The position numbers and the translations under genes were made by a program. From contig JAGOJO010000008.1 in assembly GCA_017995075.1 (NCBI GenBank), positions 1,011 through 65,010 on the forward strand: DNA of 64,000 bases, in the 5' to 3' direction. The first letter of the stretch is position 1; every line of letters begins with the position of its first letter. Positions 7,166 to 63,935 of the stretch are shown here, in pieces. The DNA comes from Bacteroidia bacterium (GTDB lineage Bacteria > Bacteroidota > Bacteroidia > AKYH767-A > OLB10). The notes under the pieces are model-generated. The model had not been told where the DNA came from. It saw only the letters and a list, made by a program, of their open reading frames with translations, and ran no database searches.

Positions 7166-10100
7166 ATGAACACTCCTCCGATAATATTCCGGAATGAACT
7201 TTTTAAACCACTGCTTTTGTGGTTTATACTCATTCTATCAACAGAGGTCAGGGCTCAAAACTATAAGGCCTCCGTTCAACCGCTCAGCGAGTACCGGTTT
7301 GAAAGCATTAACGAGCACAATGGATTGCACAACCTGCGTCTAGGCGATTTTGTACAAGACCAACAAGGGTTTATTTGGATTGCATCCGAGGATGGACTTC
7401 ATAGATATGACGGAAAAGATTTTCAAATATATCTGGAGGAAGACGGCAAAAGCACCTCTGTACTTACCAGTTGGATTTCTACACTAGAGGTTGATAAACA
7501 GGGAAGGATTTGGGTGGCGTATAACGGAGGTGGCTTTAGTATCTATACACCCGAAAATGATAAGTTCACACATTTCCCTTCCGGAACCAGTGGCCTTGGT
7601 AGCAATACGATCCAATATCTTCACTGCGATCGTGATGGAGAAATGTGGGCATATATATCTCCGAACCAGATTGCACGACTGAGTGATAAAAGTCCCATTG
7701 TACGTCCCCTCCATCCCGACACACTGGTTACACATACTTCGGCATTGGCTGTAAATATTTTTGAAGATCAGCGCACCCCTGGTCTTTTATGGTTTTGTGG
7801 AAACGGTTTATTCAGCTACAATAAAATCACGCATGAATGGAATAGTTTTTCCATCCAACACACGGTTAATCCATATCAGGAATTTAACTACTATACAAAC
7901 GGAATTGCACTGAAAGATGGTCGCGTAGTATTGAGCGCATGGGGAACAGGGGTTACTGTTTACAATCCGAACAACAATGAATGGCATCGTTACTTACCGG
8001 AAGGAACACAGGATGTACCAGGCACCCACAATATTATCTATTGGCTGGAAATGCGGGATGATCACTCTGCATGGGTAAATACTTCTATTGGTTTTGGATA
8101 TATAGATATTGATACGGGGGTCTTCTATATTATCGATGATCAAACTGCTGAAAAATACAATGTACCGAAAGGAAACATGCGAAGATTGCTGCGCGATAGA
8201 GACAATAATTTATGGATTGGACATTCTTTAGGGATCAGTTTATTAAAGAACAATTACAACAGATTTAAATTCATACCTGTGCCGGTAACACATTCAGAGA
8301 ACGGCGAATTTTATTATGTAAGTAAAATACTGAATGATACGGTTGAAAACCTGCGTATAGATGCATTGAGCTTTGCTGATGGTATTCATATCACAGATTT
8401 AAGCACGGGGAAAATTACTCGTTTGGCTGTTGATTATCTTCCCAAACAGGAACACGCGCAACTGGTACATGATTTGCTAAAAGATGACAAGGGTCGTTAT
8501 TGGGTGCTTAGTCGCGATTTCATTTATCAGCTTGATATTAAAAAATCACAGCTTAGTAAGTTACAACTCATACCGAAGTTATACGATAAGGGAGCCACTC
8601 CTTTTTTCACGGAATTTTTTTATTCTGGTGGTGATTCCGTTTGGGTAGGATCAAATCATTCAGGATTACTTTGTCTGCAACTGACAGATAAAGAGCTGAA
8701 GCAGTTTGATCATATCGAGGGAGATGATCAAACTATCAGCAGTAATTATGTGTCAAACATGCAGATGGACGGGCAAGGTCGAATGTGGGTCCAAACCAAA
8801 CGCAGATTAATTGAAGTCATCGATTTCGTAAACGGAAAAATCCAACGAATCGTGCCGGAGGATCTCAATTCCGGTAATAGCAATTATCAGTTTTTTGATA
8901 TGTCGATGGATTCGAAAAAGAACATCTGGATTTCTGGTAGCAATGGTTTTTATTATACATCTACGGCTGATAAAGGTACATTCAGCTGGAATAAACTTCC
9001 GAAAATGGAGGGCTTTACCACACAGTTTTTTTATCACTTTGTTTTTGATGGAAATGATATCATCTGGTGTATGACACCTGCCGGATTGTACTCAATTGAT
9101 CCATTTCGAAAAAAAGCAGAAAGATTTACAATCACAGACGGATTGGGCAATGATTATATTAATGCGGGTCTTAATATCGGGCCAAACAATACAATTCAGA
9201 TTTGTTATTGGAAAGGGTTTTATGTGTTAAACCACATTAAAAATTCGACACCTAGAATTCTCAAGCCGTATTTGTTGAATTTTCGTGTCTGGAATAAACC
9301 CATACAATATATACGCCGAAACAGTACAACGCTCCAGTTAAAATCAGACGAAAATTTCATTTCCATTGATTTCACTTCAGTGGATTTTGTTCACTCAGGA
9401 AAAATTCTTTTCAGTTATAAACTCGAAGGTTTAGAAGAAAGCTGGAGTGAGGCGAGTGAAAGACGGTTTGCTTCCTTTTCCCACTTGCCGGGAGGTGATT
9501 ACCGTTTTCTTGTTCGTGTGGCAAATGAGAAGGGAGAATGGGGTCCTGTTCAGGAGTTAATACGCTTCAATATTGCAACGCCTTATTGGAAGAGAACCTG
9601 GTTTGTACTCCTGGCAAGTTTGGTTTTTACTTTATTGATATTTGCTTTGTACCGATACCGAATCAATCGGGTACAACGGTCGGAAGCACATAAAACAAAA
9701 TTAAATAAACGACTGGCAGAAGCAGAAATGCGTGCATTACGTGCACAGATGAATCCGCATTTTATTTTCAACTGCCTTAACTCAATTAATCGTTATATTG
9801 TAAAAAGTGATCAGCAAAAGGCTTCATTGTATCTCACCCGCTTTTCTAAACTGATTCGTTTGATACTCGATAATTCCAATAGTAAAGCTGTCAGTCTCGA
9901 ACAGGATCTGGAGGCACTTAAGATTTACATTGAGATGGAGTCGTTGCGTTTTGAAGATAAATTTGATTTCACCGTTGAAGTAGCACCCGGGACTGACGCG
10001 TTTAATATTCAGGTACCTCCCATGATACTTCAGCCATTTGTGGAGAATGCTATTTGGCACGGCTTGCTTCATAAGGAAGGAAAGGGAGTTTTAAAGATTT

Positions 10101-10354
10101 ATATACAGAAGAATGCCCGCCATCTGGAATGTCTGATTGAGGATAATGGTGTCGGCCGCAAGAAAGCAATGGAACTTCGCAGCAAGTCCGCTACTACTCG
10201 TAAATCGCTGGGGATGCAATTAACGGAGGAGCGGATGCAGTTGCTCATGACAGAACTTGGAACGAAGGGGGAGATACGTGTGGAGGATCTGACAGGTCCA
10301 AATGACGAACCTCTTGGAACTCGTGTTATCTTAAAATTACCTATAGAAGAATAA
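7166..10354 (+). CDS. Sensor histidine kinase with a large periplasmic propeller/Y_Y_Y-type domain and a LytS-type kinase core
   Basis: 1062 aa with an N-terminal signal/anchor. The long extracytoplasmic region has repeated 'two-component regulator propeller'-like units (GFIWIASEDGLHRYDG, GRIWVAYNGGGFSIY, NNLWIGHSLGISLL). A Y_Y_Y-like segment follows (GDYRFLVRVANEKGEWG). Then one TM (WFVLLASLVFTLLIFALY), the His_kinase motif MNPHFIFNCLNSI, and HATPase_c (QPFVENAIWHG, EDNGVG). Confidence 0.85.
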   Translation: MNTPPIIFRNELFKPLLLWFILILSTEVRAQNYKASVQPLSEYRFESINEHNGLHNLRLGDFVQDQQGFIWIASEDGLHRYDGKDFQIYLEEDGKSTSVLTSWISTLEVDKQGRIWVAYNGGGFSIYTPENDKFTHFPSGTSGLGSNTIQYLHCDRDGEMWAYISPNQIARLSDKSPIVRPLHPDTLVTHTSALAVNIFEDQRTPGLLWFCGNGLFSYNKITHEWNSFSIQHTVNPYQEFNYYTNGIALKDGRVVLSAWGTGVTVYNPNNNEWHRYLPEGTQDVPGTHNIIYWLEMRDDHSAWVNTSIGFGYIDIDTGVFYIIDDQTAEKYNVPKGNMRRLLRDRDNNLWIGHSLGISLLKNNYNRFKFIPVPVTHSENGEFYYVSKILNDTVENLRIDALSFADGIHITDLSTGKITRLAVDYLPKQEHAQLVHDLLKDDKGRYWVLSRDFIYQLDIKKSQLSKLQLIPKLYDKGATPFFTEFFYSGGDSVWVGSNHSGLLCLQLTDKELKQFDHIEGDDQTISSNYVSNMQMDGQGRMWVQTKRRLIEVIDFVNGKIQRIVPEDLNSGNSNYQFFDMSMDSKKNIWISGSNGFYYTSTADKGTFSWNKLPKMEGFTTQFFYHFVFDGNDIIWCMTPAGLYSIDPFRKKAERFTITDGLGNDYINAGLNIGPNNTIQICYWKGFYVLNHIKNSTPRILKPYLLNFRVWNKPIQYIRRNSTTLQLKSDENFISIDFTSVDFVHSGKILFSYKLEGLEESWSEASERRFASFSHLPGGDYRFLVRVANEKGEWGPVQELIRFNIATPYWKRTWFVLLASLVFTLLIFALYRYRINRVQRSEAHKTKLNKRLAEAEMRALRAQMNPHFIFNCLNSINRYIVKSDQQKASLYLTRFSKLIRLILDNSNSKAVSLEQDLEALKIYIEMESLRFEDKFDFTVEVAPGTDAFNIQVPPMILQPFVENAIWHGLLHKEGKGVLKIYIQKNARHLECLIEDNGVGRKKAMELRSKSATTRKSLGMQLTEERMQLLMTELGTKGEIRVEDLTGPNDEPLGTRVILKLPIEE

Positions 10355-10356
10355 GG

Positions 10357-11109
10357 ATGAAACTTAAAGCTATTTTAATTGATGATGAGGTGAACGCCCG
10401 CGAAATGCTGGAGTGGTTACTAAAAACATATTGTCCTGAAGTTAGCCTTGAGCAGATGTGTGCCTCAGCAAAAGAAGGGCTTGATGCGATTCGGGAATTA
10501 AAGCCGGATGTTGTTTTTCTGGATATTGAAATGCCGCACATGAATGGCTTTGAAATGTTAGAGAAACTGAATGGCGACCATGACTTTGAATTAATATTTA
10601 CCACAGCATATGATCAGTACGCTATACGTGCATTTCGATACAGTGCTTTTAATTATCTCCTGAAACCGATTGATCCGGATGACCTTCAATCTACTATTAA
10701 GCGAATTCTTCAGAAGAAAGGAAATACAACACGTGAACAACTTGATCATCTTATAGAGCAAGTGAAAGCACTTACGCCTTCCGTACAACGAATTGCATTA
10801 ACCTCCGGAGATGGATTACGGTTTTTTAAAACAGAGGAAATTCTTTATTGTCAGGCAGAGAGTAATTATACTAATGTGAAGCTGGTGAATGGAGAGAACA
10901 TTCTCGTATCAAAAACACTCAAGGATATTGATGAAACGCTTTCCGGCCAGGATTTCTTTCGGGTACACAACTCTTATCTGATCAATATAAATCAGATTCG
11001 GAAATTTGTTCGTGGAGAGGGTGGATATGTTGTGATGAATGATGATCATCAGATCACGATTGCGCGTTCAAAACGTGAAGAGTTCTTTGGAAGATTCGAA
11101 CGGTTTTGA
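10357..11109 (+). CDS. LytTR-family response regulator
   Basis: 250 aa, starting 3 nt after the kinase stop. REC is seen in ILIDDEVNA, DVVFLDIEMPHMNG and LLKP. LytTR is seen in FFRVHNSYLININQI. Confidence 0.9.
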   Translation: MKLKAILIDDEVNAREMLEWLLKTYCPEVSLEQMCASAKEGLDAIRELKPDVVFLDIEMPHMNGFEMLEKLNGDHDFELIFTTAYDQYAIRAFRYSAFNYLLKPIDPDDLQSTIKRILQKKGNTTREQLDHLIEQVKALTPSVQRIALTSGDGLRFFKTEEILYCQAESNYTNVKLVNGENILVSKTLKDIDETLSGQDFFRVHNSYLININQIRKFVRGEGGYVVMNDDHQITIARSKREEFFGRFERF

Positions 11110-13404: not shown

Positions 13405-13612
13405 GTGGTATTGTTGTTTTGGTTAGTAGGTGAAATGAAAAAACGGGAGTTTTAAATCTTTGGCCCGACTATTCATTTCATTGTCCTGCGGATTTCCGCT
13501 GGTGAAGATAGAAAAGGTAAATACAGCCCTCCAAGGGCATCTATATTTTGTATGGAATTATACGACCCAAATCCCCGGTATCGTCGCAGGATGCGTTTTT
13601 TAAAGCCAATCA

Positions 13613-13659
13613 CCACTAAACAAATCTGTCAACCGCTCAAAAAAGCTGCAATCGACTCA
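13613..13659 (+). promoter_or_regulatory. Direct-repeat element (3 heptamers, 20-bp period) upstream of fibre locus A
   Basis: CCACTAA (13613), CCGCTCA (13633) and CGACTCA (13653) are spaced exactly 20 bp apart. 13628-13659 matches 7063-7094 at 25 of 32 positions without gaps. The element ends 58 nt before ATG 13717. Confidence 0.4.
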
Positions 13660-13716: not shown

Positions 13717-14007
13717 ATGAGCCAATACTTTGTATTTAAGCCCGCTGAAGTGCATCCCGGAACAGGTGAACCGCTGGAAGGAAAGTTTATCCGGATTGCA
13801 ACTTATGATGCAAAACTGGCTACTGAAATCTTTAAATCAAGATACGGGAAGGTAGAAGCATTGCAGTTCTGCTACGATGGTTTTGATTCTATGGAAATGA
13901 TTTTGAATAAAACAGAACTGGAAACATTAATACTCACTTCCTCTGGAGTATGTAGCATACTAAACGGGAATGAAATCCAATCATTTATACGCAACTCCGC
14001 CAACTAA
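13717..14007 (+). CDS. Small cytoplasmic hypothetical protein (96 aa), first gene of locus A
   Basis: The track ORF begins at TTG 13687; the first ATG is 13717 (MSQYFVFKPAEV...). No signal peptide. Its stop is 4 nt before the next ATG (14012), which suggests co-transcription. Coding status is not independently supported. Confidence 0.45.
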   Translation: MSQYFVFKPAEVHPGTGEPLEGKFIRIATYDAKLATEIFKSRYGKVEALQFCYDGFDSMEMILNKTELETLILTSSGVCSILNGNEIQSFIRNSAN

Positions 14008-14011
14008 TCTG

Positions 14012-16252
14012 ATGAAAAAAAATAAATCATATCATTCTATGTCAACCTCTCGTTTATTCGACCTATTCTTTGCAATTCTGGTCTTTATTATCATCCTCTT
14101 CGCCGGCCTTAGCAGTTTCGGTCAGGGTGTAGGCGTCAATACTACAACCCCAGATCCAAGTTCTATTCTCGATGTAAATTCTACGGACAAAGGCTTACTT
14201 GCTCCACGAATGACACATGCGCAACGCAACCTGATCAGCAATCCGGCAAACGGACTTTTGATATTTCAAACGAATACCGTGGCCAATGAACCTTCCGGAC
14301 TTTATTATTTTGATGCATCACTTCCGGGATGGGTTCGCTTCTCTGATCAGAGTAAAGACCTGGGCTGGAAAACGGATGGAAATACAGGATTGAATGCCGG
14401 TGTCAATTTTATTGGAACGAAGGATACAGCAGATCTCGTTATGCGAACAAATAATATTGAACGCATGCGTATTCAGGATAACGGGAAGGTAAGTATGGGT
14501 CCCCTTATGCCGGGATTAACTTACCCATACTCCCGTCTCGATCTTAGCGATGAAGATGGATTAAATTCAGATCTCGTTATGCGGGTTGCAGGAGGAGCAA
14601 CAGGTTATCCGCAATTCATCTTTCACAAAAGCCGGGGAACACTTGCAGCACCTACGTTAACAAGTTCAGGCGATTGGACCGGTGTAATCATTGGTCGCGC
14701 CTGGGATGGTGGAAACTGGACCAACAACTCTGCCATCATTTTAGGGGTAGATAGTACTGTATCTACCGGTCTTGCACCGGGAAATATCATTTTCTCTACA
14801 GCCAGTAAGGTCGGTAATGGCGAGAAGATGCGTATCAACAGAAATGGTCGGGTCGGCATTGGAACCACCAATCCACTAACACGATTGAACGTGGCCACAA
14901 CCGATAGTGCATGGCAAGTGGAAGCGTTACAAAACAAGAGCAGCTTCGGATGGTCTGGCTCATGGTATCTTAATAGTGCCGGTGCGTTTTCCGGACATGT
15001 TGGATACGGAAACATCAATTCACCTCGTTGGGGAAATAAGTTTTTTGCAGGATCAATTACGAATATTCCTTTTGTAATGACCACCAATGATGCAGAGCGG
15101 ATGCGTATACATGGAAGTGGAGATGTTACCATCGGAGATACGCTTCAAACAGCAAAGTTGCGAGTAGCATCAAATAGCGGCTTGCTTACACCACAACTGA
15201 TGATTGCCGAACTTGATTCTGTTGACTGGGGACGCATTGCTTTCACAAATACCAATACCAGCCGGTTCTGGCATCTCGCAGGCAGATCTTCATTGCCGGA
15301 TACAGAATCTGATTTTAATGTTTTTAATAGCAATGCCGGAAATGTGATGACCTATAAATGGAACGGGAATATTGGTATGGGTACAACAACACCTACTGTA
15401 AAGCTCGAAGTATATAGTCCCGGACTTATCCCTATGCGTGTACGATCATCGGCTCCAACAGGATATTCATTAACCCAGTTTATCAATGATGCCAACCTAT
15501 ACGGACATATTGGCTGGGGAAATAGTGGTGCATCTACATTTGCTAATACATTTTACGTAGGTACAAACTCCAGTTCACCACTTGTTTTCACCACCGCCGA
15601 TGTTGAGCGCATGCGGATTGGTACAACGGGAAATCTGGGTATCGGAATGAACAATCCGCTCTGGCGTCTGGATGTTTGGGATGTACAATCAGTAGCTCGC
15701 TTTGTATCTACCAACCATGTGAACGGTAGTGTGATTGAATTTAAAAGTCTTGTTCCCGGACCAACAGGCAACCTGGGATCAATCAACTTCAATAATCCAA
15801 CTGACAACTACCCTGGTCAGATCGCCTATACAGTAAATAATGAATTGACATTCCGTGTAGGTGGAACAGAGAAAATGCGCGTGCAAGGAAATGGATATGT
15901 GGGTATCGGAACAAATAATCCGGGAGCCGAACTCGAAGTAAATGGTTTTACCAAGCTCGGGGGCACTACAGCACCGGCGGTAAAAATGGTAAAGTTGACA
16001 AGTACAACCGGCGCTACCCAGGGCGGTTTTGTAGATATCCCATTGCCTGTACCTGCTACAAAAGTATTGGCGGTAGAAATACATGTTGAATATGTGGCTT
16101 CCACTTTTGTACCGAAAGGGTATACCATAAATGCAGGGTACGAGTTCGATTATTTTATGCAAGGCTCCAGCATTCGTATCATTAACAAGACGGCGAACTC
16201 GGCAAATATCCTGGGTAAGCCGGTGAAAGTATTGGTAACCTATGAGCTATAA
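14012..16252 (+). CDS. Fibre-like surface protein with a conserved N-terminal 'STDKG-L-PR-T-AQR' head motif and five E(R/K)MR(I/V) repeat units
   Basis: ATG 14012 gives MKKNKSYHSMSTSRLFDLFFAILVFIIILFAGLSSFGQG, a signal peptide or anchor. The head motif GVGVNTTTPDPSSILDVNSTDKGLLAPRMTHAQRNLISNPANGLLIFQT is homologous to the N-terminus of ORF 57887..59593. Five units of the type ..F.TNN.ERMRI...G.VGIGT..P...L.V begin at nt 14459, 14822, 15095, 15605 and 15869. There is no T9SS CTD. Confidence 0.7.
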   Translation: MKKNKSYHSMSTSRLFDLFFAILVFIIILFAGLSSFGQGVGVNTTTPDPSSILDVNSTDKGLLAPRMTHAQRNLISNPANGLLIFQTNTVANEPSGLYYFDASLPGWVRFSDQSKDLGWKTDGNTGLNAGVNFIGTKDTADLVMRTNNIERMRIQDNGKVSMGPLMPGLTYPYSRLDLSDEDGLNSDLVMRVAGGATGYPQFIFHKSRGTLAAPTLTSSGDWTGVIIGRAWDGGNWTNNSAIILGVDSTVSTGLAPGNIIFSTASKVGNGEKMRINRNGRVGIGTTNPLTRLNVATTDSAWQVEALQNKSSFGWSGSWYLNSAGAFSGHVGYGNINSPRWGNKFFAGSITNIPFVMTTNDAERMRIHGSGDVTIGDTLQTAKLRVASNSGLLTPQLMIAELDSVDWGRIAFTNTNTSRFWHLAGRSSLPDTESDFNVFNSNAGNVMTYKWNGNIGMGTTTPTVKLEVYSPGLIPMRVRSSAPTGYSLTQFINDANLYGHIGWGNSGASTFANTFYVGTNSSSPLVFTTADVERMRIGTTGNLGIGMNNPLWRLDVWDVQSVARFVSTNHVNGSVIEFKSLVPGPTGNLGSINFNNPTDNYPGQIAYTVNNELTFRVGGTEKMRVQGNGYVGIGTNNPGAELEVNGFTKLGGTTAPAVKMVKLTSTTGATQGGFVDIPLPVPATKVLAVEIHVEYVASTFVPKGYTINAGYEFDYFMQGSSIRIINKTANSANILGKPVKVLVTYEL

Positions 16253-16295
16253 AACGCAGAATAATAAAAACAGGAAACAATTTATTCTATATCCA

Positions 16296-17834
16296 ATGTT
16301 CAATCAAACTACTAAAATACTGCTTGTATTTGCGCTCATCATTTTATCCGCAACCGGCAAAGCACAACAACTATCGCTGAACAGCACGAATGTGTTTATT
16401 CATAACACAGCTACGATGTATGTCAGTGGGGATATTAAAACTACTGGTACAGGTTTATTTAATCTCGAAGGAGAGCTTGAATTTACCGGCGACCTCGATC
16501 ATCAGGGAGCTCCGGGTGCCTTTACGGGTGATGGTACAGTAGTACTCTCCGGCGGAGCGCAGCAGCTGGATGGTGTGCAACCAATTGATTTTCCTTCTTT
16601 AGTTCTAAATGGCGCAGGAGATAAAACGTTACTTCGCTCTGTTTCTGTAGGTGGCAGCTCCAATGCCGGGCAGCTTGATCTTCAGCAGGGAACTCTTGTA
16701 TTAAATAATTTCAATCTGTATATCCGGAATGCTGCAGCAGCAGCCATTAATTTCACAAACGGAAGTATACGAGCTGAAGATGTTGATTTTAACAGTAATG
16801 TTTACTGGTACATCGGCACTGCAGCCGGAACGCATGTGGTACCTTTCTCTAATGATGCCGGAGTGATCATTCCAATGGCAATTGACAGGGTGGCAGGAGA
16901 TGTGGATACTGTTCGCTTCTCAACCTATGCCACCAATCCGGCGAATAATCCATTGCCGAATTCTCCTATAACTGTTACGCATATCCGAAATACGAGCGGT
17001 GTAGATAATAGTGCCAACACAGTTGATAGGTTCTGGTTAACACAATGGGATGACCCGGCTGCGCTTGTGCATCTGCGCTTTAACTATGCCACTGCAGAAG
17101 CGCCTGCAAATGGAAACAATAGCCCCAAAGCCCAGCGCTGGAATCCACTCAACGATGGTTGGGATTCACCGATGACCGGTCAGTTTAACTTGTCTCCTTA
17201 CAGTGTAAGTGTGCAGAATGTTGGAATGCCCGGCGTTTGGGCGATTGCGAAAGATGGCAGCCCTTTACCAATTACGTTGCTTGATTTTAAAGCAAAAGCT
17301 AATAAGAAAGGTGAAGTTGATTTAAGCTGGATTACATTGAATGAAAAGGATAATGATTATTTTACAATTGAGCGTTCGAAAAATGGTATAGACTTCGAGC
17401 CTGTTCTTCAGTTAGATGGTGCAGGTACTTCTGCGGTTCCTTTGTTTTATTCAGCAGTAGATAAAAAGCCGTTGAATGGTCGATCTTACTATAGATTGCG
17501 TCAAACAGATTATAACGGAGAGTCGACTGTAACCGCAGCGCAATCTGTATATTTTTCAAATGGTGGTTATGTATCCGTTTCCACTTATCCGAATCCTGCT
17601 GTTGATCAGTTAACTTTTACCTTGGAAGCAGAATTTGATGAGCAGGCTGAGTTAACACTTGAAATTTTTACCGCATATGGACAAAGAGCGTTTATTGGAA
17701 GTCTGCAATCACTGGAAAGCAATACTGAAGGCTCGTTTAATTTGCCAGTGTCATCCTTTGCCCGTGGACAATATCTTTATCGAATACTTTCAGACTCAGA
17801 AGTTCTTGGAAGCGGCAAAATTATTTTACAATAG
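16296..17834 (+). CDS. Secreted T9SS cargo protein, paralogue of ORF 62360..63886
   Basis: ATG 16296 gives the signal peptide MFNQTTKILLVFALIILSATGKAQQ. Blocks shared with 62360..63886 are NTSGVDNSANTVDRFW, PLPITLLDFKA, NDYFTIERSKNGIDFE and YYRLRQTDYNG. The C-terminal T9SS sorting domain is YPNPAVDQLTF...GQYLYRI...GKIILQ. Confidence 0.75.
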   Translation: MFNQTTKILLVFALIILSATGKAQQLSLNSTNVFIHNTATMYVSGDIKTTGTGLFNLEGELEFTGDLDHQGAPGAFTGDGTVVLSGGAQQLDGVQPIDFPSLVLNGAGDKTLLRSVSVGGSSNAGQLDLQQGTLVLNNFNLYIRNAAAAAINFTNGSIRAEDVDFNSNVYWYIGTAAGTHVVPFSNDAGVIIPMAIDRVAGDVDTVRFSTYATNPANNPLPNSPITVTHIRNTSGVDNSANTVDRFWLTQWDDPAALVHLRFNYATAEAPANGNNSPKAQRWNPLNDGWDSPMTGQFNLSPYSVSVQNVGMPGVWAIAKDGSPLPITLLDFKAKANKKGEVDLSWITLNEKDNDYFTIERSKNGIDFEPVLQLDGAGTSAVPLFYSAVDKKPLNGRSYYRLRQTDYNGESTVTAAQSVYFSNGGYVSVSTYPNPAVDQLTFTLEAEFDEQAELTLEIFTAYGQRAFIGSLQSLESNTEGSFNLPVSSFARGQYLYRILSDSEVLGSGKIILQ

Positions 17835-17851: not shown

Positions 17852-17893
17852 AAAAAAATAAGGCGGTCAGTAATCTGGCCGCCTTATTTTTTT
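17852..17893. terminator. Bidirectional intrinsic terminator between convergent genes
   Basis: Stem aaggcggtcag (17860-17870) / ctggccgcctt (17875-17885) has 11 bp including one G-U pair, with a 4-nt loop. It is flanked by A7 (17852-17858) and T8 (17886-17893). Confidence 0.75.
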
Positions 17894-45803: not shown

Positions 45804-47345
45804 TTAATGACGGACAATAAACTTTCCGCTTAACTGCTCATTTCCATTTTGAACTATGATCCAATACAACCCTTCGTACCATGAACTGAGATTCATAAAA
45901 GTGACCCGCTCGTTTACAGTCAACTTTTCCTGAAGCTTTCCATCGGTGCTGTACAACATTACAATTGACTCACCTGTGAAAGAATCAGGGAATTTTATCG
46001 TCAGAGTTTCTGAAGCAGGATTAGGATAAAGCAGTAAAGAAGATTTAACAGGAGAATCAGGCAGTGCTGAAGTAGAAGAATGAAGACGAGCTGTAAATCC
46101 CCGCCGTATATTGAATCCGGCATTACCGGTGCCAGCCAGGAATAAATCACCTGCAGCCTCGTCGATTGCATTTACCTCAGGGTTAAGAATACTGGGCAGA
46201 ATCAGTTGTTGATCTGTTATGCGTTGCCCATTCAAATTATACTGATATAGCCACGGAATTCCTTTTGTTGTAACAAATGTCAGTCGATTATTTTCAAGGT
46301 GGAGGAAGTCTTTATTGCGCCCATAGAGATTAGAAAAGCCACGTGCAGTATCGTTCCATAAAATAATTCCGTTTGAATCGATGGCCGTAATTAAACTGTA
46401 TCCCGGACTACTGCTATTTATACTTAACGTATAAATATTTCCATTGCTATCGGTTTTTATATTCACTACTGACGTTAAGGCAGTACTTAGTCCAGGAAAG
46501 GAGATGGTTCTGGTCCATAATGTATCGCCCAATGCATTCACTTTTACCAATCCTGCAAACTGATTTATCCTCCCACCTGCAATCGCATTTCCAATATGAT
46601 CAACAGCCAGCTGAGTATGGTATTCTTCTAAACTAACCGGTAGTGTTGTCTGCCAAAGATAATTTCCGGAAGTATCACCATAAATCAATGATCCAAAACC
46701 TGTAAAATTGAATACCAGCTGATAGAAGCCGGTATCGCCACACATTTCTATTCCTCTTGCTATTGCAGAATTCCAGCCTGTAAGCAGCGGATAACTACTC
46801 AGCCATCTGTAATTACCACCCACATCGAATCGCCCTGCAGCAGCGTTGAAAGCGTTATTAACCTTGATTTGTCCAGAGAGATACACATTACCTACTCCAT
46901 CTATAGCGACATCATCCAGATCATCGCCGGTTGCAAACCCCGGAGCATTGAGAATACCGCCTGAGATACTGTCACCCAGGGCATCAAGTTCGGTATAAAC
47001 CATATTGTTCGTTCCGGAATTATCCTCATATTCTCCGGCATAAATAATATTCCCTGACGGAAGTGGAAGCAGGCGGTAACTATAGTTAAAATTAAAACCA
47101 TTCATTGTTTTTCTCCATCGTTGCTGACCATTGGCATCGTATGAAAGATACACCGGACTCTGATCCTGCAATGTGTCAATGGTTCCATTAACATAAGATA
47201 TTCCGTTAGAATCAACAAATAAATCCTCAATCCTGCTATAACCTGTAACAGGAGAATCACATTCTGCTGCTACCCAAAGGGCGGTAAATTGGGCATTTGA
47301 TGATAACGAAATTAGTAGTAAGAAAGTGAGAAGCTTGAATTTCAT
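45804..47345 (-). CDS. T9SS-secreted repeat (beta-propeller-like) protein
   Basis: 513 aa with signal peptide MKFKLLTFLLLISLSSNAQ. Repeated D..GN.Y..G units are present. The T9SS CTD is LYPNPASETLTIKF...GLYWIIV. Confidence 0.7.
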   Translation of the reverse strand: MKFKLLTFLLLISLSSNAQFTALWVAAECDSPVTGYSRIEDLFVDSNGISYVNGTIDTLQDQSPVYLSYDANGQQRWRKTMNGFNFNYSYRLLPLPSGNIIYAGEYEDNSGTNNMVYTELDALGDSISGGILNAPGFATGDDLDDVAIDGVGNVYLSGQIKVNNAFNAAAGRFDVGGNYRWLSSYPLLTGWNSAIARGIEMCGDTGFYQLVFNFTGFGSLIYGDTSGNYLWQTTLPVSLEEYHTQLAVDHIGNAIAGGRINQFAGLVKVNALGDTLWTRTISFPGLSTALTSVVNIKTDSNGNIYTLSINSSSPGYSLITAIDSNGIILWNDTARGFSNLYGRNKDFLHLENNRLTFVTTKGIPWLYQYNLNGQRITDQQLILPSILNPEVNAIDEAAGDLFLAGTGNAGFNIRRGFTARLHSSTSALPDSPVKSSLLLYPNPASETLTIKFPDSFTGESIVMLYSTDGKLQEKLTVNERVTFMNLSSWYEGLYWIIVQNGNEQLSGKFIVRH

Positions 47346-55743: not shown

Positions 55744-57666
55744 ATGTTCTCAGGATTTTCCCTACGTACTCTCTTTATTTGCACATTATCGATCCTTGGT
55801 TTTAATAGTGGATCCGCTAACGCTCAAGGCTTCAATTCTAATCCTATTACATGGACTTCCCCCATCGGCGGACATTATGGCGGGTTCGGTGCCTTGCTTG
55901 GGTATAACTATTTCTCGAATCTCGTTATCAGTAATGGTTCGTCGCAGGCATGGAATACCGCAGATATTAATGGTGACGGTCTTGTTGATCTTATTGTTAC
56001 GGCTGAGTATTATGCTCCTTATACTACGGCACTTCAATTCGGTGTCGGAACCAATCCTCATTGGAAAGTTTATTTGGGAAATGGAACGGGTTTCACTACA
56101 TCAGCTATAACCTGGAGTACTCCTGTTGGGGGTCAATATGCATTTTCAATTGGAAGTTATGGCTATATCGGCACAAGTGGGTTCTCTAACCAGGAACAGG
56201 ATTCACAAACATGGTCATTAACGGATATGAATAACGATCAGAAGCCGGATCTGGTGATTTATACCAGGTATGTTCCATCCATTAGTAACGATCAGCAGTT
56301 CAATGCCGGGACATCCCCATATTGGAAAGTATATTTAAATAATGGAAGTGGTTTCAACGCCTTGCCAATTAACTGGTCAACTCCGGTAGGTGGATCATAT
56401 CTCTCTTCCGGTGCCAATGTTGGTTATCTCAACGAATCCGGTTATGCCTGTTCAAATAATGCGAACTGTCAATCATGGACGCTTTCGGATTTTACTGGTG
56501 ATGGAAAACCTGATTTGGTGATTTCTTCTCAACATGATGTGAGTATAGGTGCACCAGTGCAGTTTGGCGTAGGTGTGAGCCCGTATTTTAAAGTGTATGA
56601 AAATACAGGCACATCTTTTTCATCAACACCACTAATCTGGAACACTCCGGTTGGCGGAAAATATTCTGTATCCAATGTAAATTATGGATACCAGACTACG
56701 ATAGGAGTGTCTTACAGTGGAAGTGACAGCAGTCAGAACTGGGCTATAGGTGATGCTGATGGAGATGGACTGAAGGATCTGGTACTCTGTGCGCATTATA
56801 ATTCAAGTGTCAGTGCGCCTGAACAATTCGGAACTACCGGGTCAAGGCATTGGAGAATACATCGCAATACCGGGTCTGGATTTGACCCGAACATTACCTA
56901 TTGGTCAACTCCCGACGGAGGAAATTATACGGCTAGTGGACAGGATTTAGGCTTTACATTGCCCCTTGTAAACGGATTGAATTTTTACGACAGCAGCCAG
57001 ACCTGGACCACTACGGATATAGACGGTGACCATAAACCGGAATTGGTGGTGATGTCGGAATATTTTGCAGTCTATAATTGTTATCGTCAGTTTGGTGTAG
57101 GTAGCAATCAGTTCTGGAAAATATACGCAAATAATGATAGTGGATTTGCTGCTACACCTGTCATTTGGAGTACTCCTTCAGGTGGAGCAATCATTAACAC
57201 AGGTTTTGTCCAGGGTTTTGTGAATGAGGTGGGCTATAGTAATCAGTACTCCGGATCAGATTCCTACAGAATTGCCGATATGAATGGTGATGGTAAGCCA
57301 GATTTAACTGTTTTTAGTGAGTACAATACCTCTCAAAGTTATCCTCAGCAATTCGGCGTTCCAACAGCGCCTTACTGGAAGGTGTATTTGAATAATACTG
57401 TTCCTTTATCAATAGAGGAAACAGTTATTCAAAACAATAAATTGATCGTCTATCCAAATCCATGTACCGCGTATATTAAATTTAAGACAGTTGAATTGCT
57501 TACAGGTGCAACATATCATCTGTTTAATGTAGAGGGGAAATTAATTCGTACTGGTGCAATTGTTGATCTGGAAAACATCATCTGGACTACTGACCTCGCA
57601 AGCGGAGTTTATTTTGTACAACTTTCAAATTCTCCATCTGCTGCTACATATTTCATACATGAATAA
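55744..57666 (+). CDS. T9SS-secreted FG-GAP/VCBS-like repeat protein
   Basis: 640 aa with a signal peptide. There are six ~80-aa units, each with W(S/N)TP.GG ... D.(N/D)GD(G)KPDL ... QFG.G..P(Y)WKVY.N.GSGF. The T9SS CTD is VYPNPCTAYIKF...GVYFVQL. Confidence 0.75.
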   Translation: MFSGFSLRTLFICTLSILGFNSGSANAQGFNSNPITWTSPIGGHYGGFGALLGYNYFSNLVISNGSSQAWNTADINGDGLVDLIVTAEYYAPYTTALQFGVGTNPHWKVYLGNGTGFTTSAITWSTPVGGQYAFSIGSYGYIGTSGFSNQEQDSQTWSLTDMNNDQKPDLVIYTRYVPSISNDQQFNAGTSPYWKVYLNNGSGFNALPINWSTPVGGSYLSSGANVGYLNESGYACSNNANCQSWTLSDFTGDGKPDLVISSQHDVSIGAPVQFGVGVSPYFKVYENTGTSFSSTPLIWNTPVGGKYSVSNVNYGYQTTIGVSYSGSDSSQNWAIGDADGDGLKDLVLCAHYNSSVSAPEQFGTTGSRHWRIHRNTGSGFDPNITYWSTPDGGNYTASGQDLGFTLPLVNGLNFYDSSQTWTTTDIDGDHKPELVVMSEYFAVYNCYRQFGVGSNQFWKIYANNDSGFAATPVIWSTPSGGAIINTGFVQGFVNEVGYSNQYSGSDSYRIADMNGDGKPDLTVFSEYNTSQSYPQQFGVPTAPYWKVYLNNTVPLSIEETVIQNNKLIVYPNPCTAYIKFKTVELLTGATYHLFNVEGKLIRTGAIVDLENIIWTTDLASGVYFVQLSNSPSAATYFIHE

Positions 57667-57886: not shown

Positions 57887-59593
57887 TTATTTTATAGAAC
57901 CAGAAGTGTCGGTTTTTAAAGAATCATCTAACCGCTTTTCAATTTCTGCCATTCGGATATTGATCGTATTTATTCTTGCTTCGAGTTCTTTGTTGGTTAC
58001 AACCAAAAGTTCATTAGCTGAAGCCAATTCCTGTACTGCTTTTACCAGAGGAACAACGAATTCAGCATAACGCACGGCATATGTATCTTTTTCATTTGAA
58101 GGTTTTTGAACCCCACTAAAATCATAGCCGGTTTTATCAGCTGCAACTTCCACTTCTTGTGCTACAAAGCCGGTATAGCGAGTTTGTGTTTTAACTTTGA
58201 AGTTGTGGTCTGCTGCTATCAAAGAATCAACGTTACCGTTTGGTAATATATGATTGAGATAGGAAATCACATTCAAGTTATAGGATACAGGACGCAATGC
58301 CAGAATGAATGGCAGGCCAGGAATATCTTCCTTAATGTCATTTTTAAATCGTCCGTCTGATATTACACTCCAGTTTACTGCGCCGCCAATTGCTGTAACA
58401 AGTGCATTCCCGATCTTCACCTGATTGCTTGCGGTCACGACAGCATTGTAGCCAATCGCCGTTGAATTGGAAAAATTGTTGAGATTCGCTTCTGCTAAAG
58501 CACCAACAAAAGTACAATTCGAATAAGTTGAACGAATCATACCTGCCTGGTAACCCAATGCAAGATTATTATTTCCGGTATTATTTTGCAATGTATTTGC
58601 ACCAATGCCTGTATTGTTTGATCCGATAGTATTGGAATACCCGGAAAAGTAACCCAACCCACAATTGTAATTCCCGGTAGTATTTCCGGCTAATGCTGAC
58701 TCACCAAAAGCTGAATTGAAGTTTCCGATATTATTATTAAACAGGGAGGAATATCCAAATGATGAATTAGAAGCACCGGTTGTATTTAGTTTTAAAGACC
58801 AGTTTCCGTAACCGCAATTATAATTTGCTGTATTATTCAGTAACGATTCATATCCGTAAGCACAGTTAAATGTACCTGCAGCTGCAGTAGAGAACATAGC
58901 ATGGTAGCCGAATACCTGATTGTAATTCCCGCTTAAAGCCGTAGTTAATGCACCAGTCCCAACTGCTGTTGATTGTACTATGCCTGTAGCATTTTGCATA
59001 GCATAAGAGCCAATGGCTGTGTTCGAATACGAGTTAGCAGAATTCTGTAGAGTGAAGGATCCTACCGCAGTATTAAATTCCCCATCCAAATTTGAAAAGC
59101 CGCTTTTGAATCCGAGATATACATTGTCAAAACCGGAAACAGTATTGTTAAATCCGGATTGGAACCCTAGAAATAAATTACGTCCAGTATAAGGCCCATC
59201 TATATTATCAATGTAGCCACTTTTTAAATTATTAATTTTAAATTGAATCGGTTGGTTGTCTGTAGTTCCGATAAAGTTAGCAGGACCATTTCCTGAATTT
59301 CCGTTAAGGCTCCATCCACTTACACCATTTCCTATTGATTGCCATGCACTGCCATCGAAGTACATAAATTTATTTCCGGTAATATCGTATACCAATAATC
59401 CGGTTGCGGGAGCGACAATGGCAACCCGTTGAGCGCTCGTCAATCTTGGAATCAAAATTCCTTTATCAGTTGATACCATATCCCAAAGCGCCGATGCATG
59501 AGGAGTAGGGTTGTTCACACCAATATTTTGTGCTGATAGTGGAGACGTAATGTTTAACAAAACGAATAACAGAAGCAGAGTGCGTGTTTTCAT
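57887..59593 (-). CDS. Tail-fibre-like protein: head motif + Asn/Gly-rich repeat shaft + C-terminal S74-type intramolecular chaperone domain
   Basis: 568 aa with signal peptide MKTRTLLLLFVLLNITSPLSAQ. The head motif is IGVNNPTPHASALWDMVSTDKGILIPRLTSAQRVAIVAPATGLLVYD. The shaft has degenerate repeats (NTAIGSYAMQN, NSAFGESALAGNTTGNYN and similar). The S74-like block ISDGRFKNDIKEDIPGLPFILALRPVSYNL...YTGFVAQEVE...YAVRYAEFVVPLVKAVQEL lies at about nt 58019-58363, followed by a short coiled-coil. There is no T9SS CTD. Confidence 0.8.
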   Translation of the reverse strand: MKTRTLLLLFVLLNITSPLSAQNIGVNNPTPHASALWDMVSTDKGILIPRLTSAQRVAIVAPATGLLVYDITGNKFMYFDGSAWQSIGNGVSGWSLNGNSGNGPANFIGTTDNQPIQFKINNLKSGYIDNIDGPYTGRNLFLGFQSGFNNTVSGFDNVYLGFKSGFSNLDGEFNTAVGSFTLQNSANSYSNTAIGSYAMQNATGIVQSTAVGTGALTTALSGNYNQVFGYHAMFSTAAAGTFNCAYGYESLLNNTANYNCGYGNWSLKLNTTGASNSSFGYSSLFNNNIGNFNSAFGESALAGNTTGNYNCGLGYFSGYSNTIGSNNTGIGANTLQNNTGNNNLALGYQAGMIRSTYSNCTFVGALAEANLNNFSNSTAIGYNAVVTASNQVKIGNALVTAIGGAVNWSVISDGRFKNDIKEDIPGLPFILALRPVSYNLNVISYLNHILPNGNVDSLIAADHNFKVKTQTRYTGFVAQEVEVAADKTGYDFSGVQKPSNEKDTYAVRYAEFVVPLVKAVQELASANELLVVTNKELEARINTINIRMAEIEKRLDDSLKTDTSGSIK

Positions 59594-59642: not shown

Positions 59643-59665
59643 TGAAAATACTACTTAAGTGGTAC
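59643..59665 (-). promoter_or_regulatory. Shared upstream element, copy 1 (in front of the fibre gene)
   Basis: The plus strand reads tgaaaatactacttaagtggtac. This is near-identical to 63917-63935 and contains the near-palindrome TACtA-CTTAAG-TgGTA. It lies 50-72 nt upstream of ATG 59593. Confidence 0.35.
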
Positions 59666-63916: not shown

Positions 63917-63935
63917 TGAAATACTACTTTAGTGG
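63917..63935 (-). promoter_or_regulatory. Shared upstream element, copy 2 (in front of the T9SS cargo gene)
   Basis: The plus strand reads tgaaatactactttagtgg. Against 59643-59662 it has 18 matches, 1 mismatch and 1 single-base gap (aligned by hand). It lies 31-49 nt upstream of ATG 63886. Confidence 0.35.

What the first reader, a model, noticed from the sequence alone, without database searches (positions are those of the whole stretch)
13717..17834. Locus A: 'head-motif fibre + T9SS cargo' gene pair that recurs 44 kb away
ORF 14012..16252 has a signal/anchor followed by GVGVNTTTPDPSSILDVNSTDKGLLAPRMTHAQRNLISNPANGLLIFQT..YYFD....W....GW...GN.G.....NFIGT. This aligns almost position for position with the N-terminus of minus-strand ORF 57887..59593 (IGVNNPTPHASALWDMVSTDKGILIPRLTSAQRVAIVAPATGLLVYD..MYFDGSAW...GWSLNGNSGNGPANFIGT). 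Its neighbour 16296..17834 is a clear paralogue of 62360..63886. The shared blocks are NTSG.DNSANTVDRFW, PLP..LL.F.A, NDYF...RS..GI.FE and YYRL.QTD..G, and both end in a T9SS CTD. So one two-gene module occurs twice in a single window. In both copies only the partner protein carries a T9SS sorting domain; the fibre-like protein does not. My inference is that the CTD-bearing protein exports, anchors or caps the fibre, making a two-partner surface appendage. I know of no characterised system with this architecture.
Basis: partly seen in the sequence, partly recalled or inferred. Interest (0 to 1): 0.7.

Follow-up and report, generated by a model that had tools for sequence, protein, structure and literature searches.

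The report
Regulated surface fibre plus T9SS partner
A phage-tail-fibre-like surface protein with no export signal of its own is encoded, in many Bacteroidota, right next to one uncharacterised family of type IX-secreted proteins and a dedicated two-component regulator, so the pair is a real conserved module whose physical partnership is still untested.

Summary
The sequence similarities are real. fibA and fibB share only a ~120-aa N-terminal domain (39% identity, E 1e-17; newer-Pfam PF26696 'PTL_trimer'). carA and carB are full-length paralogues (35% identity, E 8e-86), each ending in a type-A T9SS CTD. Neither fibre has a CTD.

The "module occurs twice" claim needs correcting. Locus A is fibre→cargo, abutting or overlapping. 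Locus B is cargo→histidine kinase→LuxR regulator→fibre.

The linkage is not chance. Of 20 short-form cargo genes, 13 have a PTL_trimer fibre gene immediately upstream, and 18 have one within 4 kb on the same strand. None of 41 long-form relatives has one within about 10 kb (Fisher p 1e-13). Conversely, about 18 of 37 assessable fibre arrays end with a CTD protein.

In locus B a palindromic box precedes both genes, and it recurs upstream of the same genes in four other MAGs. Locus A has its own Y_Y_Y kinase and LytTR regulator.

The fibres resemble Bdellovibrio MAT fibres in architecture. The cargo N-terminal region matches no Pfam or PDB family, although the family is large.

Co-regulation and functional linkage are well supported. 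Export, anchoring or capping of the fibre by the partner remains inference. Verdict: new variant of a known kind; interest 0.6.

The parts
14012..16252 (+). fibA: non-S74 fibre protein (746 aa). Signal peptide aa 1-37, with Gln at +1. PTL_trimer head about aa 38-155 (nt 14123..14476). Shaft of about 6 repeats ending in G-x-V/I-G-I-G-T-x-x-P-x-x-x-L-x-V 'capping loop' motifs. Beta-sandwich tip about aa 656-746.
   Evidence: The orthologue P0121 carries PF26696 PTL_trimer. The shaft matches Bdellovibrio MAT fibre structures 8ol4/8oml/8ond and phage tail-fibre PHROGs from residue 146 onward. No CTD was found.
16242..17834 (+). carA: short-form T9SS cargo partner (530 aa from 16242, or 512 aa from 16296). 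In 512-aa numbering: signal peptide, short beta-helix (aa 25-160), conserved beta-sandwich core containing DNSANTVDRFW (aa 165-320), Ig/FN3-like domain (aa 326-420), type-A CTD (aa 431-512; nt 17586..17831).
   Evidence: AlphaFold2 model with pLDDT 84. Foldseek returns only generic FN3/Ig matches. NCBI MBP7166492.1, 'T9SS type A sorting domain-containing protein'.
17852..17893 (.). 19-bp-stem hairpin flanked by A/T runs: a terminator closing the fibA-carA unit, shared with the convergent cytochrome c gene.
   Evidence: No comparably strong hairpin lies between or inside fibA and carA.
7166..11109 (+). Two-component system near locus A: Y_Y_Y/His_kinase sensor (7166..10354) and LytTR response regulator (10357..11109).
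   Evidence: Pfam annotation of the orthologues in L054. The pair is conserved upstream of the fibre-cargo pair in L058. In L082 the kinase, the LytTR regulator, the fibre and the cargo are contiguous. LytTR regulators also flank fibre arrays in L068, L076, L081, L085, L088 and L132.
62360..63886 (-). carB: paralogue of carA (508 aa); type-A CTD at aa 433-496 (nt 62399..62590).
63919..63935 (-). Dyad box CCACTAAAGTAGTATTT, 33-49 nt upstream of the carB ATG and about 22 nt upstream of a TAATTTTA element resembling the Bacteroidota -7 promoter motif.
60331..62295 (-). Sensor histidine kinase (TPR + HisKA_3 + HATPase_c) lying between carB and fibB.
   Evidence: Orthologues occupy the same position in L008 and L009. 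Related kinases lie next to fibre/cargo genes in L001, L006, L011, L018, L051, L056 and L086.
59680..60315 (-). NarL/LuxR-type response regulator (Response_reg + GerE).
59646..59662 (-). Dyad box CCACTTAAGTAGTATTT, 53-69 nt upstream of the fibB ATG and followed by a TATTTTTA -7-like element.
57887..59593 (-). fibB: S74-type fibre (568 aa). Signal peptide aa 1-21, with Gln at +1. PTL_trimer head about aa 22-125 (nt 59219..59530). Repetitive shaft. Peptidase_S74 intramolecular chaperone at aa 412-487 (nt 58133..58360) with an SDGRFK motif.
   Evidence: NCBI MBP7166527.1, 'tail fiber domain-containing protein'.

Best explanation
Both loci are copies of a conserved Bacteroidota surface-fibre module with three components. 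(1) One or more phage-tail-fibre-derived trimeric fibres. Each has a Sec signal peptide, an N-terminal PTL_trimer domain, a variable shaft, and either an S74 chaperone end or a beta-sandwich tip. None has a T9SS signal. (2) A dedicated partner from one family of type-A-CTD T9SS cargo proteins, built from a beta-helix, a conserved beta-sandwich core, an Ig-like domain and the CTD. (3) A two-component system that controls expression.

Shown: the two gene families are adjacent and co-oriented far more often than chance. In locus A they form one transcription unit with no room for a terminator between them. In locus B each gene carries the same palindromic promoter box.

Inferred: the fibre trimer and the partner associate. 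The partner's CTD takes the complex, or at least the partner, through the T9SS, and the PorU sortase attaches it to anionic LPS. The partner would then be the cell-surface base that displays CTD-less fibres with interchangeable tips. The response regulators switch the appendage on in response to an unknown envelope or environmental cue.
For: Paralogy and domains.

Forward adjacency. A GTDB-wide scan with the cargo N-terminal profile returned 53 loci. Of 20 short-form cargo genes, including the two in the window, 13 have a head-domain fibre gene ending within about 0-450 nt upstream on the same strand, mostly within 100 nt or overlapping. Five more have one 1-3.8 kb downstream on the same strand. 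None of 41 long-form proteins with the same core has a head gene within the fetched flanks of up to 10 kb. Fisher p = 1.4e-13.

Independent metagenome contigs show fibre→cargo with called genes and PF26696.

Reverse adjacency. Of 37 assessable loci picked by the head domain alone, 10 end in a cargoN gene. Six end in a related cargoN-like CTD family and two in other Por_Secre_tail proteins. The literature baseline is about 30 type-A CTD proteins per genome (PMC10202324).

Inheritance as pairs. The nearest relatives of pair A both lie in L058, and those of pair B in L008/L009. Mantel r = 0.48, p 5e-4. Heads of cargo-associated fibres cluster together: 62 of 80 nearest neighbours share the label, against 41 expected.

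Co-regulation. All nine perfect copies of CACTWAAGTRGTATT in 1.6 Mb lie 48-158 nt upstream of the start of a cargo or fibre domain match, in five MAGs. Each is followed about 22 nt later by TAnnTTT(A/G). A kinase and regulator are recurrently adjacent. A terminator follows carA only.

Surface-fibre nature. The shaft is homologous to Bdellovibrio MAT fibre structures and to phage tail-fibre PHROGs; fibB has an S74 domain with an SDxxxK motif. The MAT paper states that the conserved N-domain presumably binds an unidentified surface element (PMC10769870).
Against: There is no direct evidence of contact. No complex prediction was possible, and no head+cargoN fusion protein was found among about 390 family members.

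About half of assessable fibre arrays lack a cargoN or cargoN-like neighbour, and a few are followed by unrelated CTD proteins (FG-GAP, ice-binding-like) or by none. The partner is therefore not universally required.

The head domain occurs up to 4-5 times internally in some fibres, which does not fit a purely N-terminal docking role.

The Mantel and clustering signals are confounded by species phylogeny.

I found no mention of co-transport of a CTD-less protein with a T9SS cargo in the review I checked.

One fibre (L055) carries S74 and a CTD in a single chain, so fibres can acquire their own signal.
Confidence: 0.5

Rival explanations
1. Co-regulated but physically independent surface proteins. 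The fibre and the CTD protein are two separate adhesins or surface-remodelling factors that travel together because they belong to the same two-component-controlled regulon or mobile cassette. The fibre reaches its destination by another route, such as outer-membrane vesicles, lysis or an unknown exporter.
For: Shared promoter box and adjacent kinase-regulator pairs. Fibre arrays are sometimes followed by unrelated CTD proteins or by none. No fusions were found. In locus B the two genes have separate promoters.
Against: One specific cargo subfamily (short-form cargoN) is tied to fibres, while long-form proteins with the same core never are. Gene spacing is very tight or overlapping, with a fixed order, in most genomes. 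The fibre lacks any known Bacteroidota outer-membrane export signal.
Confidence: 0.3
2. The CTD protein is a fibre accessory factor rather than an anchor. It would be analogous to phage tail-fibre assembly proteins or distal-tip adhesins encoded just downstream of tail-fibre genes, helping trimerisation or forming the distal cap.
For: Its position immediately downstream of the fibre gene mirrors phage tail-fibre/Tfa gene order (from my own knowledge). One cargo gene can follow 2-3 tandem fibre genes (L001, L018).
Against: There is no similarity to any PHROG family or to a phage chaperone. fibB already has its own S74 intramolecular chaperone. A 500-aa beta-helix/Ig protein with a sortase-type CTD looks like a displayed structural protein.
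Confidence: 0.12
3. Nothing special: either a chance resemblance from common low-complexity surface-protein domains duplicated within one genome, or a degraded prophage, tailocin or eCIS tail-fibre region.
For: The fibre shafts match phage tail-fibre and tailspike PHROGs. FN3/Ig and CTD domains are ubiquitous.
Against: E-values of 1e-17 and 8e-86 for the two paralogue pairs. The pairing is conserved in more than 25 loci from divergent MAGs and one cultured species. The neighbours are regulators, a cytochrome c, a pentapeptide-repeat protein and glycosyltransferases, with no sheath, tube, baseplate or other phage genes. The head domain and the cargo proteins have no PHROG match.
Confidence: 0.04

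Closest known systems
Bdellovibrio bacteriovorus MAT (mosaic adhesive trimer) fibres (Caulton et al. 2024, PMC10769870; PDB 8OL4, 8OML, 8OND, 8OJN)
   Same: [quoted passage not shown] Both are multi-copy families with variable tips. The fibA shaft aligns with MAT structures at E 1e-9.
   Different: The host phylum differs: Bacteroidota, which has a T9SS. Here the fibre genes are coupled to a specific CTD cargo family and to two-component systems, and I found no such partner mentioned in the parts of the MAT paper I read. Homology between the two N-terminal domains was not tested, because the one search I tried for a full-length MAT sequence found nothing.
T9SS type-B CTD adhesins with their cognate PorP/SprF partner genes (e.g. 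the sprB-sprF cluster of Flavobacterium johnsoniae; reviewed in PMC10202324)
   Same: A surface adhesin gene is conserved next to a dedicated T9SS-related partner gene needed for its export or anchoring.
   Different: Here the partner is itself a type-A CTD cargo, not a PorP/SprF outer-membrane barrel. The fibre has no CTD of any type.
Phage tail-fibre or tailspike genes with a downstream accessory (Tfa-type) gene
   Same: The fibre shaft, tip and S74 domain are homologous to phage tail-fibre/tailspike families, and an accessory gene lies immediately downstream.
   Different: There is no phage context. The virion-attachment end is replaced by a signal peptide plus PTL_trimer domain. The downstream protein has no phage homologue and carries a secretion and sortase signal.
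Trimeric autotransporter adhesins (YadA family)
   Same: Trimeric repetitive surface fibres. One source names a member of fibB's 90%-identity cluster 'trimeric autotransporter adhesin', and a neighbouring fibre in L070 has YadA_head repeats.
   Different: There is no C-terminal YadA membrane-anchor barrel. The C-terminus is an S74 chaperone or a beta-sandwich tip.

Membership tests
PTL_trimer / MAT-like cell-surface fibre | Sec signal peptide directly followed by the conserved N-terminal domain of about 120-130 aa (PF26696) | tested here: met
   Hydrophobic leaders end in ...SFG|Q (fibA) and ...LSA|Q (fibB). The head HMM scores E 1e-44 and 1e-38. The fibA orthologue P0121 is annotated PF26696 PTL_trimer. 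PF26696 is absent from the local Pfam copy, so the window proteins themselves were matched only with my own HMM.
PTL_trimer / MAT-like cell-surface fibre | Shaft homologous to solved MAT fibres, with repeated capping-loop motifs | tested here: met
   fibA matches 8ol4 at E 1e-9 and 8oml at E 2e-8. The alignments cover the ...ERMRI..G.VGIGT..P...L.V unit. The motif is listed in the MAT paper's supplement.
PTL_trimer / MAT-like cell-surface fibre | C-terminal S74 chaperone/protease with an SDxxxK motif (S74 subclass) or a non-S74 tip | tested here: met
   fibB: Peptidase_S74, 26.4 bits against a cut-off of 22, with SDGRFK at aa 412-417. fibA: no S74; its beta-sandwich tip matches PHROG 3018.
PTL_trimer / MAT-like cell-surface fibre | Homology of the N-terminal domain to the Bdellovibrio MAT N-domain | not tested
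   The MAT structures I matched in the PDB are C-terminal fragments (constructs listed), and a head-domain profile search of the PDB found no relative. My attempt to retrieve a full-length MAT protein found nothing.
PTL_trimer / MAT-like cell-surface fibre | Trimer formation and surface exposure | not testable with these tools
   The monomer AlphaFold2 model of fibA has pLDDT 59 and is uninformative.
T9SS type-A cargo | C-terminal Por_Secre_tail/TIGR04183 domain above the curated threshold, plus an N-terminal signal peptide | tested here: met
   carA scores 29.9 bits and carB 37.3 bits against a cut-off of 27; TIGR04183 scores 26.4 and 30.7 against 23. Both have signal peptides ending in A|Q.
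T9SS type-A cargo | T9SS-dependent secretion with CTD cleavage and A-LPS attachment | not testable with these tools
   The window holds at least two further CTD proteins (55744..57666 and 45804..47345). This implies a T9SS-positive organism, but I identified no T9SS machinery gene in the window (only selected ORFs were scanned).
T9SS cargo (applied to the fibres themselves) | Type A, B or C CTD at the C-terminus | tested here: not met
   No PF18962, TIGR04183, TIGR04131 or PF13585 hit in fibA or fibB at E <= 0.01. The fibB C-terminus is an S74 chaperone.
Type-B CTD / PorP-SprF pair | Type-B CTD on the adhesin and an adjacent PorP/SprF barrel gene | tested here: not met
   The fibres and cargo proteins have no type-B CTD. 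No such family appeared in the neighbours I scanned, which were not all ORFs of the window.
Prophage / tailocin / eCIS tail-fibre locus | Adjacent sheath, tube, baseplate, capsid or other phage genes | tested here: not met
   The flanking genes are regulators, cytochrome c, a pentapeptide-repeat protein, a fatty-acid hydroxylase and glycosyltransferases. PHROG hits are confined to the fibre shafts and tips.
Trimeric autotransporter adhesin | C-terminal YadA-type membrane anchor | tested here: not met
   No YadA_anchor hit in either fibre.

The most novel reading that the evidence does not exclude
The short-form cargoN protein is a dedicated T9SS carrier and anchor. CTD-less, pre-assembled trimeric fibres bind it in the periplasm and hitchhike through the SprA translocon on its CTD. 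They are then displayed on the cell surface through its A-LPS linkage. This would be a first case of piggy-back export by the T9SS. It would also identify the long-sought 'surface element' that holds MAT-type fibres, with one base serving several interchangeable fibres under two-component control.
Probability: 0.25. Interest if true: 0.85.

Novelty: new variant of a known kind. Interest (0 to 1): 0.6.

Why it matters
Phage-tail-fibre-like 'tail fiber domain-containing proteins' are very common in environmental Bacteroidota. How they leave the periplasm and what holds them on the cell is unknown. The same question was left explicitly open for the Bdellovibrio MAT fibres.

A conserved, tightly linked T9SS cargo family gives a concrete candidate for the export and anchoring partner. 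The family has about 700 clusters at 50% identity with E <= 1e-30, and its N-terminal region matches no Pfam or PDB family. The module also supplies a defined regulatory circuit that can be tested directly: a kinase, a regulator and a palindromic promoter box.

If the partnership is physical, it would extend the known T9SS substrate rules beyond proteins that carry their own CTD. It would also describe a modular, tip-swappable adhesion appendage in a phylum important in wastewater, soil, aquatic and host-associated communities.

Tried and rejected
- Retrieving a full-length Bdellovibrio MAT protein, using a fragment rebuilt from a PDB alignment. The search found nothing and used the last protein search, so homology of the two N-domains stays untested.
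- First attempt at a metagenome scan with a 19-sequence head alignment. It worked with 7 sequences.
- Monomer AlphaFold2 model of fibA: pLDDT 59, unusable for fold search.
- Foldseek of the carA model against PDB and BFVD: only generic FN3/Ig and CTD matches with TM <= 0.27, and no functional clue.
- Profile searches of the cargo N-terminal region and of the head domain against PDB sequences: no significant hit.
- NCBIfam: nothing beyond the CTD.
- Search for Rosetta-stone fusions of head and cargoN: none in 240 + 150 proteins.
- Literature searches for PF26696, for tail-fibre proteins with T9SS, for S74 with T9SS, and for piggy-back secretion in a T9SS effector review: nothing relevant.
- The small ORF 13717..14007 as a third component. 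Rejected: it is present only in the near-identical contig L054.
- The dyad box in locus A: absent, even allowing 3 mismatches.
- Sigma-70-type promoter scan: not informative for Bacteroidota.

Full report
**1. Checking the observation**

The four ORFs exist as described.

fibA (14012..16252, +) and fibB (57887..59593, -) align only over the ~120 residues that follow their signal peptides: 39% identity, E 1e-17. The rest of the two proteins is unrelated.
- fibB ends in a Peptidase_S74 intramolecular chaperone with an SDGRFK motif.
- fibA has no S74 domain and ends in a small beta-sandwich.

The JGI start for the 96%-identical orthologue, and the 530-aa NCBI protein, place the carA start at 16242. 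Both cargo proteins pass the curated thresholds for the type-A T9SS C-terminal domain. Neither fibre has any CTD. tblastn finds exactly two copies of each element in the 64-kb window.

The description "one two-gene module occurs twice" needs correcting.
- In locus A the order is fibre→cargo. The genes overlap by 11 nt or lie 43 nt apart, depending on the start codon. A 19-bp-stem terminator follows carA.
- In locus B the order on the minus strand is carB → histidine kinase (TPR + HisKA_3 + HATPase_c) → NarL/LuxR-type response regulator → fibB.

**2. What the proteins are**

The shared N-terminal segment is a recognised domain. Orthologues and hundreds of other hits carry the precomputed Pfam family PF26696, named PTL_trimer. 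This family is missing from the local Pfam copy, which explains the empty result. The domain nearly always sits directly after the signal peptide, but some fibres carry up to four or five internal copies.

The fibA shaft consists of units ending in G-x-V-G-I-G-T-x-x-P-x-x-x-L-x-V.
- It aligns with crystal structures of the Bdellovibrio bacteriovorus MAT fibres (8ol4 E 1e-9; 8oml; 8ond).
- The same motif is the "capping loop" consensus in that paper's supplement.
- Caulton et al. (PMC10769870) describe all 21 MATs as a signal peptide, a conserved beta-rich ~130-aa domain, a trimeric fibre, and an S74 or non-S74 end. [quoted passage not shown]
- fibB and fibA therefore have the architecture of the S74 and non-S74 MAT classes.

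PHROG profiles match the shafts and tips as phage tail fibre or tailspike, but only from residue ~140 onward. The head domain has no phage counterpart.

The cargo proteins have no match in Pfam, NCBIfam, PHROG or PDB sequences outside the CTD. A confident AlphaFold2 model of carA (pLDDT 84) shows four parts:
- a short right-handed beta-helix, aa 25-160;
- a beta-sandwich core containing the invariant DNSANTVDRFW segment, aa 165-320;
- an Ig/FN3-like domain;
- the CTD.

Foldseek returns only generic FN3/Ig hits.

The family is large. An exhaustive profile search finds 706 cluster representatives at E <= 1e-30. These comprise ~500-aa "short forms" and many "long forms" in which the same core is preceded by hundreds to thousands of residues of beta-helix.

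NCBI annotates the window proteins only generically, as "T9SS type A sorting domain-containing protein" and "tail fiber domain-containing protein", from a Bacteroidia MAG.

**3. Is the pairing more than chance?**

Forward test. A scan of one genome per GTDB species with the cargo N-terminal profile returned 53 loci. I scanned six-frame ORFs with HMMs of the head domain and of the cargo N-terminal region.
- Of 20 short-form cargo genes, including the two in the window, 13 have a head-domain fibre gene ending immediately upstream on the same strand. The gaps are typically -20 to +100 nt. Sometimes two or three tandem fibre genes precede one cargo gene.
- Five more have a fibre gene 1-3.8 kb downstream on the same strand.
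- The two exceptions are a contig end (L037) and an opposite-strand fibre 4 kb away (L011).
- None of 41 long-form genes has a head-domain gene within the fetched flanks of up to 10 kb, although several come from the same MAG as a paired short form (for example JADKFV01).
- Fisher's exact p = 1.4e-13.

Three further metagenome contigs, with independent gene calls and Pfam labels, show PTL_trimer fibre → cargo at gaps of 12-290 nt.

Reverse test. I examined 80 metagenome loci chosen only by the head domain. Of these, 37 have enough downstream sequence to assess.
- 10 have a cargoN gene right after the fibre or fibre array.
- 6 have a related "cargoN-like" family with the same architecture and a Por_Secre_tail domain.
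- 2 have other Por_Secre_tail proteins (FG-GAP; ice-binding-like).

So roughly half of the fibre arrays end with a type-A CTD gene. A review reports more than 3000 type-A CTD proteins in 104 genomes, about 30 per genome (PMC10202324).

The pairs also appear to be inherited together.
- The closest relatives of fibA and of carA both lie in L058. Those of fibB and carB both lie in L008/L009.
- Head and cargo distance matrices correlate: Mantel r 0.48, p 5e-4.
- Heads from cargo-associated arrays cluster together: 62 of 80 nearest neighbours share the label, against 41 expected.
- Both statistics are confounded by species phylogeny, so I count them as weak support.

**4. Regulation**

Locus B type. 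Kinase-regulator pairs of the locus-B type recur beside the fibre and cargo genes.
- The order cargo-HK-RR-fibre is found in L008 and L009, with 63-82% identity.
- The order HK-RR-fibre(s)-cargo is found in L001, L006, L011, L018, L051, L056 and L086.

In the window, the 17-mer CCACT(T/A)AAGTAGTATTT occurs exactly twice, 53-69 nt upstream of fibB and 33-49 nt upstream of carB. Across 1.6 Mb of fetched loci, all nine perfect matches to CACTWAAGTRGTATT lie 48-158 nt upstream of the start of a cargo or fibre domain match. They come from the window and from L006, L008, L009 and L036. Copies with 1-2 mismatches lie upstream of fibre or cargo genes in L001, L007 and L055.

Aligned, the box reads T(A/T)CCACT-(T/A)A-AGT(A/G)GTA, a 7-2-7 inverted repeat. 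About 22 nt downstream lies TAnnTTT(A/G), which resembles the Bacteroidota -7 promoter element. The -7 consensus, and the resemblance of the box to NarL-type 7-2-7 sites, are from my own knowledge. My inference is that the LuxR-type regulator encoded between the two genes activates both promoters.

Locus A type. Locus A lacks this box but has its own system 2.6 kb upstream: a Y_Y_Y/His_kinase sensor (7166..10354) and a LytTR regulator (10357..11109).
- The pair is conserved in L054 and L058.
- In L082 the kinase, the regulator, the fibre and the cargo are directly contiguous.
- LytTR regulators flank several other fibre arrays.
- A ~38-nt stretch (13612..13650) is conserved between the window and L058 in an otherwise divergent intergenic region.

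**5. Most likely mechanism**

Shown:
- two gene families that are tightly and specifically linked;
- co-transcription (locus A) or matching promoters (locus B);
- dedicated two-component control;
- a fibre of phage-tail-fibre/MAT type with a Sec signal but no outer-membrane export signal known for Bacteroidota (no CTD and no lipobox cysteine);
- a partner with a type-A CTD. Established T9SS biology says such a CTD directs passage through SprA/Sov, cleavage by PorU and attachment to A-LPS.

Inferred: the fibre trimer binds the partner. The partner then supplies export and/or surface anchorage, giving a regulated appendage with interchangeable tips. I put about 0.5 on a physical partnership of this kind and about 0.9 on functional linkage or co-regulation.

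Evidence against a strict docking model:
- many fibre arrays have no cargoN neighbour;
- some are followed by unrelated CTD proteins;
- the head domain can be internal;
- no fusion proteins were found;
- I found no mention of T9SS co-transport in the review I checked.

One fibre in L055 carries S74 plus a CTD in a single chain. This shows that fibres of this kind can be direct T9SS substrates. It supports a link between these fibres and the T9SS, but it also shows that a separate partner is not the only solution.

**6. Comparison with known systems and novelty**

The fibre half is a new member of a known kind: MAT-like, PTL_trimer, "tail fiber domain-containing" proteins. I could not test whether the head domain is homologous to the Bdellovibrio N-domain.

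The cargo half is a generic T9SS type-A substrate by its CTD, but its body belongs to an undescribed family.

The locus is not any of the following:
- a type-B CTD/PorP-SprF pair;
- a trimeric autotransporter;
- a prophage, tailocin or eCIS locus.

I found no paper describing fibre-cargo pairing, the associated two-component systems or the promoter box. I therefore rate it a new variant of a known kind, of moderate to high interest. It is not exotic, but it offers a concrete and testable answer to how CTD-less tail-fibre-like adhesins are exported or held on Bacteroidota cells. Parachryseolinea silvisoli (L013) is a cultured carrier in which to test it.

Noticed in passing
window 59646..59662 and 63919..63935 (minus strand); also L006 9828, L008 9935 and 14218, L009 9962 and 14237, L036 9914 and 11648: A palindromic 7-2-7-like box, T(A/T)CCACT-(T/A)A-AGT(A/G)GTA, lies about 22 nt upstream of a TAnnTTT(A/G) -7-like element. 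It precedes both the cargo gene and the fibre gene that flank a TPR-HisKA_3 kinase and LuxR regulator. All nine perfect copies in 1.6 Mb are in such promoter positions. It is probably the regulator's binding site.
   Followed up: yes
window 7166..11109: A Y_Y_Y/His_kinase sensor and a LytTR response regulator lie 2.6 kb upstream of locus A. The pair is conserved in L054 and L058, and the equivalent genes are directly contiguous with the fibre-cargo pair in L082. LytTR regulators also flank fibre arrays in L068, L076, L081, L085, L088 and L132. Fibre clusters therefore use at least two different two-component types.
   Followed up: partly
window 13612..13650: A ~38-nt stretch (CACCACTAAACAAATCTGTCAACCGCTCAAAAAAGCTG) is conserved with L058 inside an otherwise divergent intergenic region upstream of locus A. 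It begins with the same CCACTAA half-site as the locus-B box. It may be a regulator site or a leader element.
   Followed up: partly
window 13717..14007: A 96-aa ORF lies 4 nt upstream of fibA. It was called as a gene by JGI and is 100% identical in L054, where the flanking fibre is only 91% identical. It has no homologue in L058 or any other locus and no family match.
   Followed up: partly
window 55744..57666: An FG-GAP/VCBS-repeat protein with a type-A CTD is convergent with fibB. Its orthologue (45% identity) lies beside the orthologous cluster in L008, and an FG-GAP+CTD gene follows a fibre array in L079. It may be a further surface protein recurrently linked to these clusters.
   Followed up: partly
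L055 2687..4477: A fibre protein combines a weak head domain, Peptidase_S74 and Por_Secre_tail in one chain. S74 self-cleavage would separate the fibre from its own T9SS signal after export.
   Followed up: partly
L062, L090, L096, L104, L118 and L081 (genes immediately downstream of fibre arrays): A second ~450-aa family has the same layout as cargoN: signal peptide, short beta-helix, a core with RYYDI.P in place of VDRFW.I, an Ig-like domain and a CTD. It occupies the same position after fibre genes. In L081 it is extended by SprB repeats.
   Followed up: partly
L019-L053 (e.g. L019 6827..11167, L029 4865..11116): Long-form proteins of 900-2100 aa carry the cargoN core, Ig-like domain and CTD behind very long beta-helical repeat regions. 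They never have fibre genes nearby, so the fibre association is specific to the short form.
   Followed up: yes
window 45804..47345 (minus strand): Another Por_Secre_tail (type-A CTD) protein of 513 aa with no other Pfam domain, unrelated to the cargoN family.
   Followed up: no
window 17852..17893: A 19-bp-stem hairpin flanked by A and T runs lies between the convergent carA and cytochrome c genes. It is a likely bidirectional terminator.
   Followed up: no
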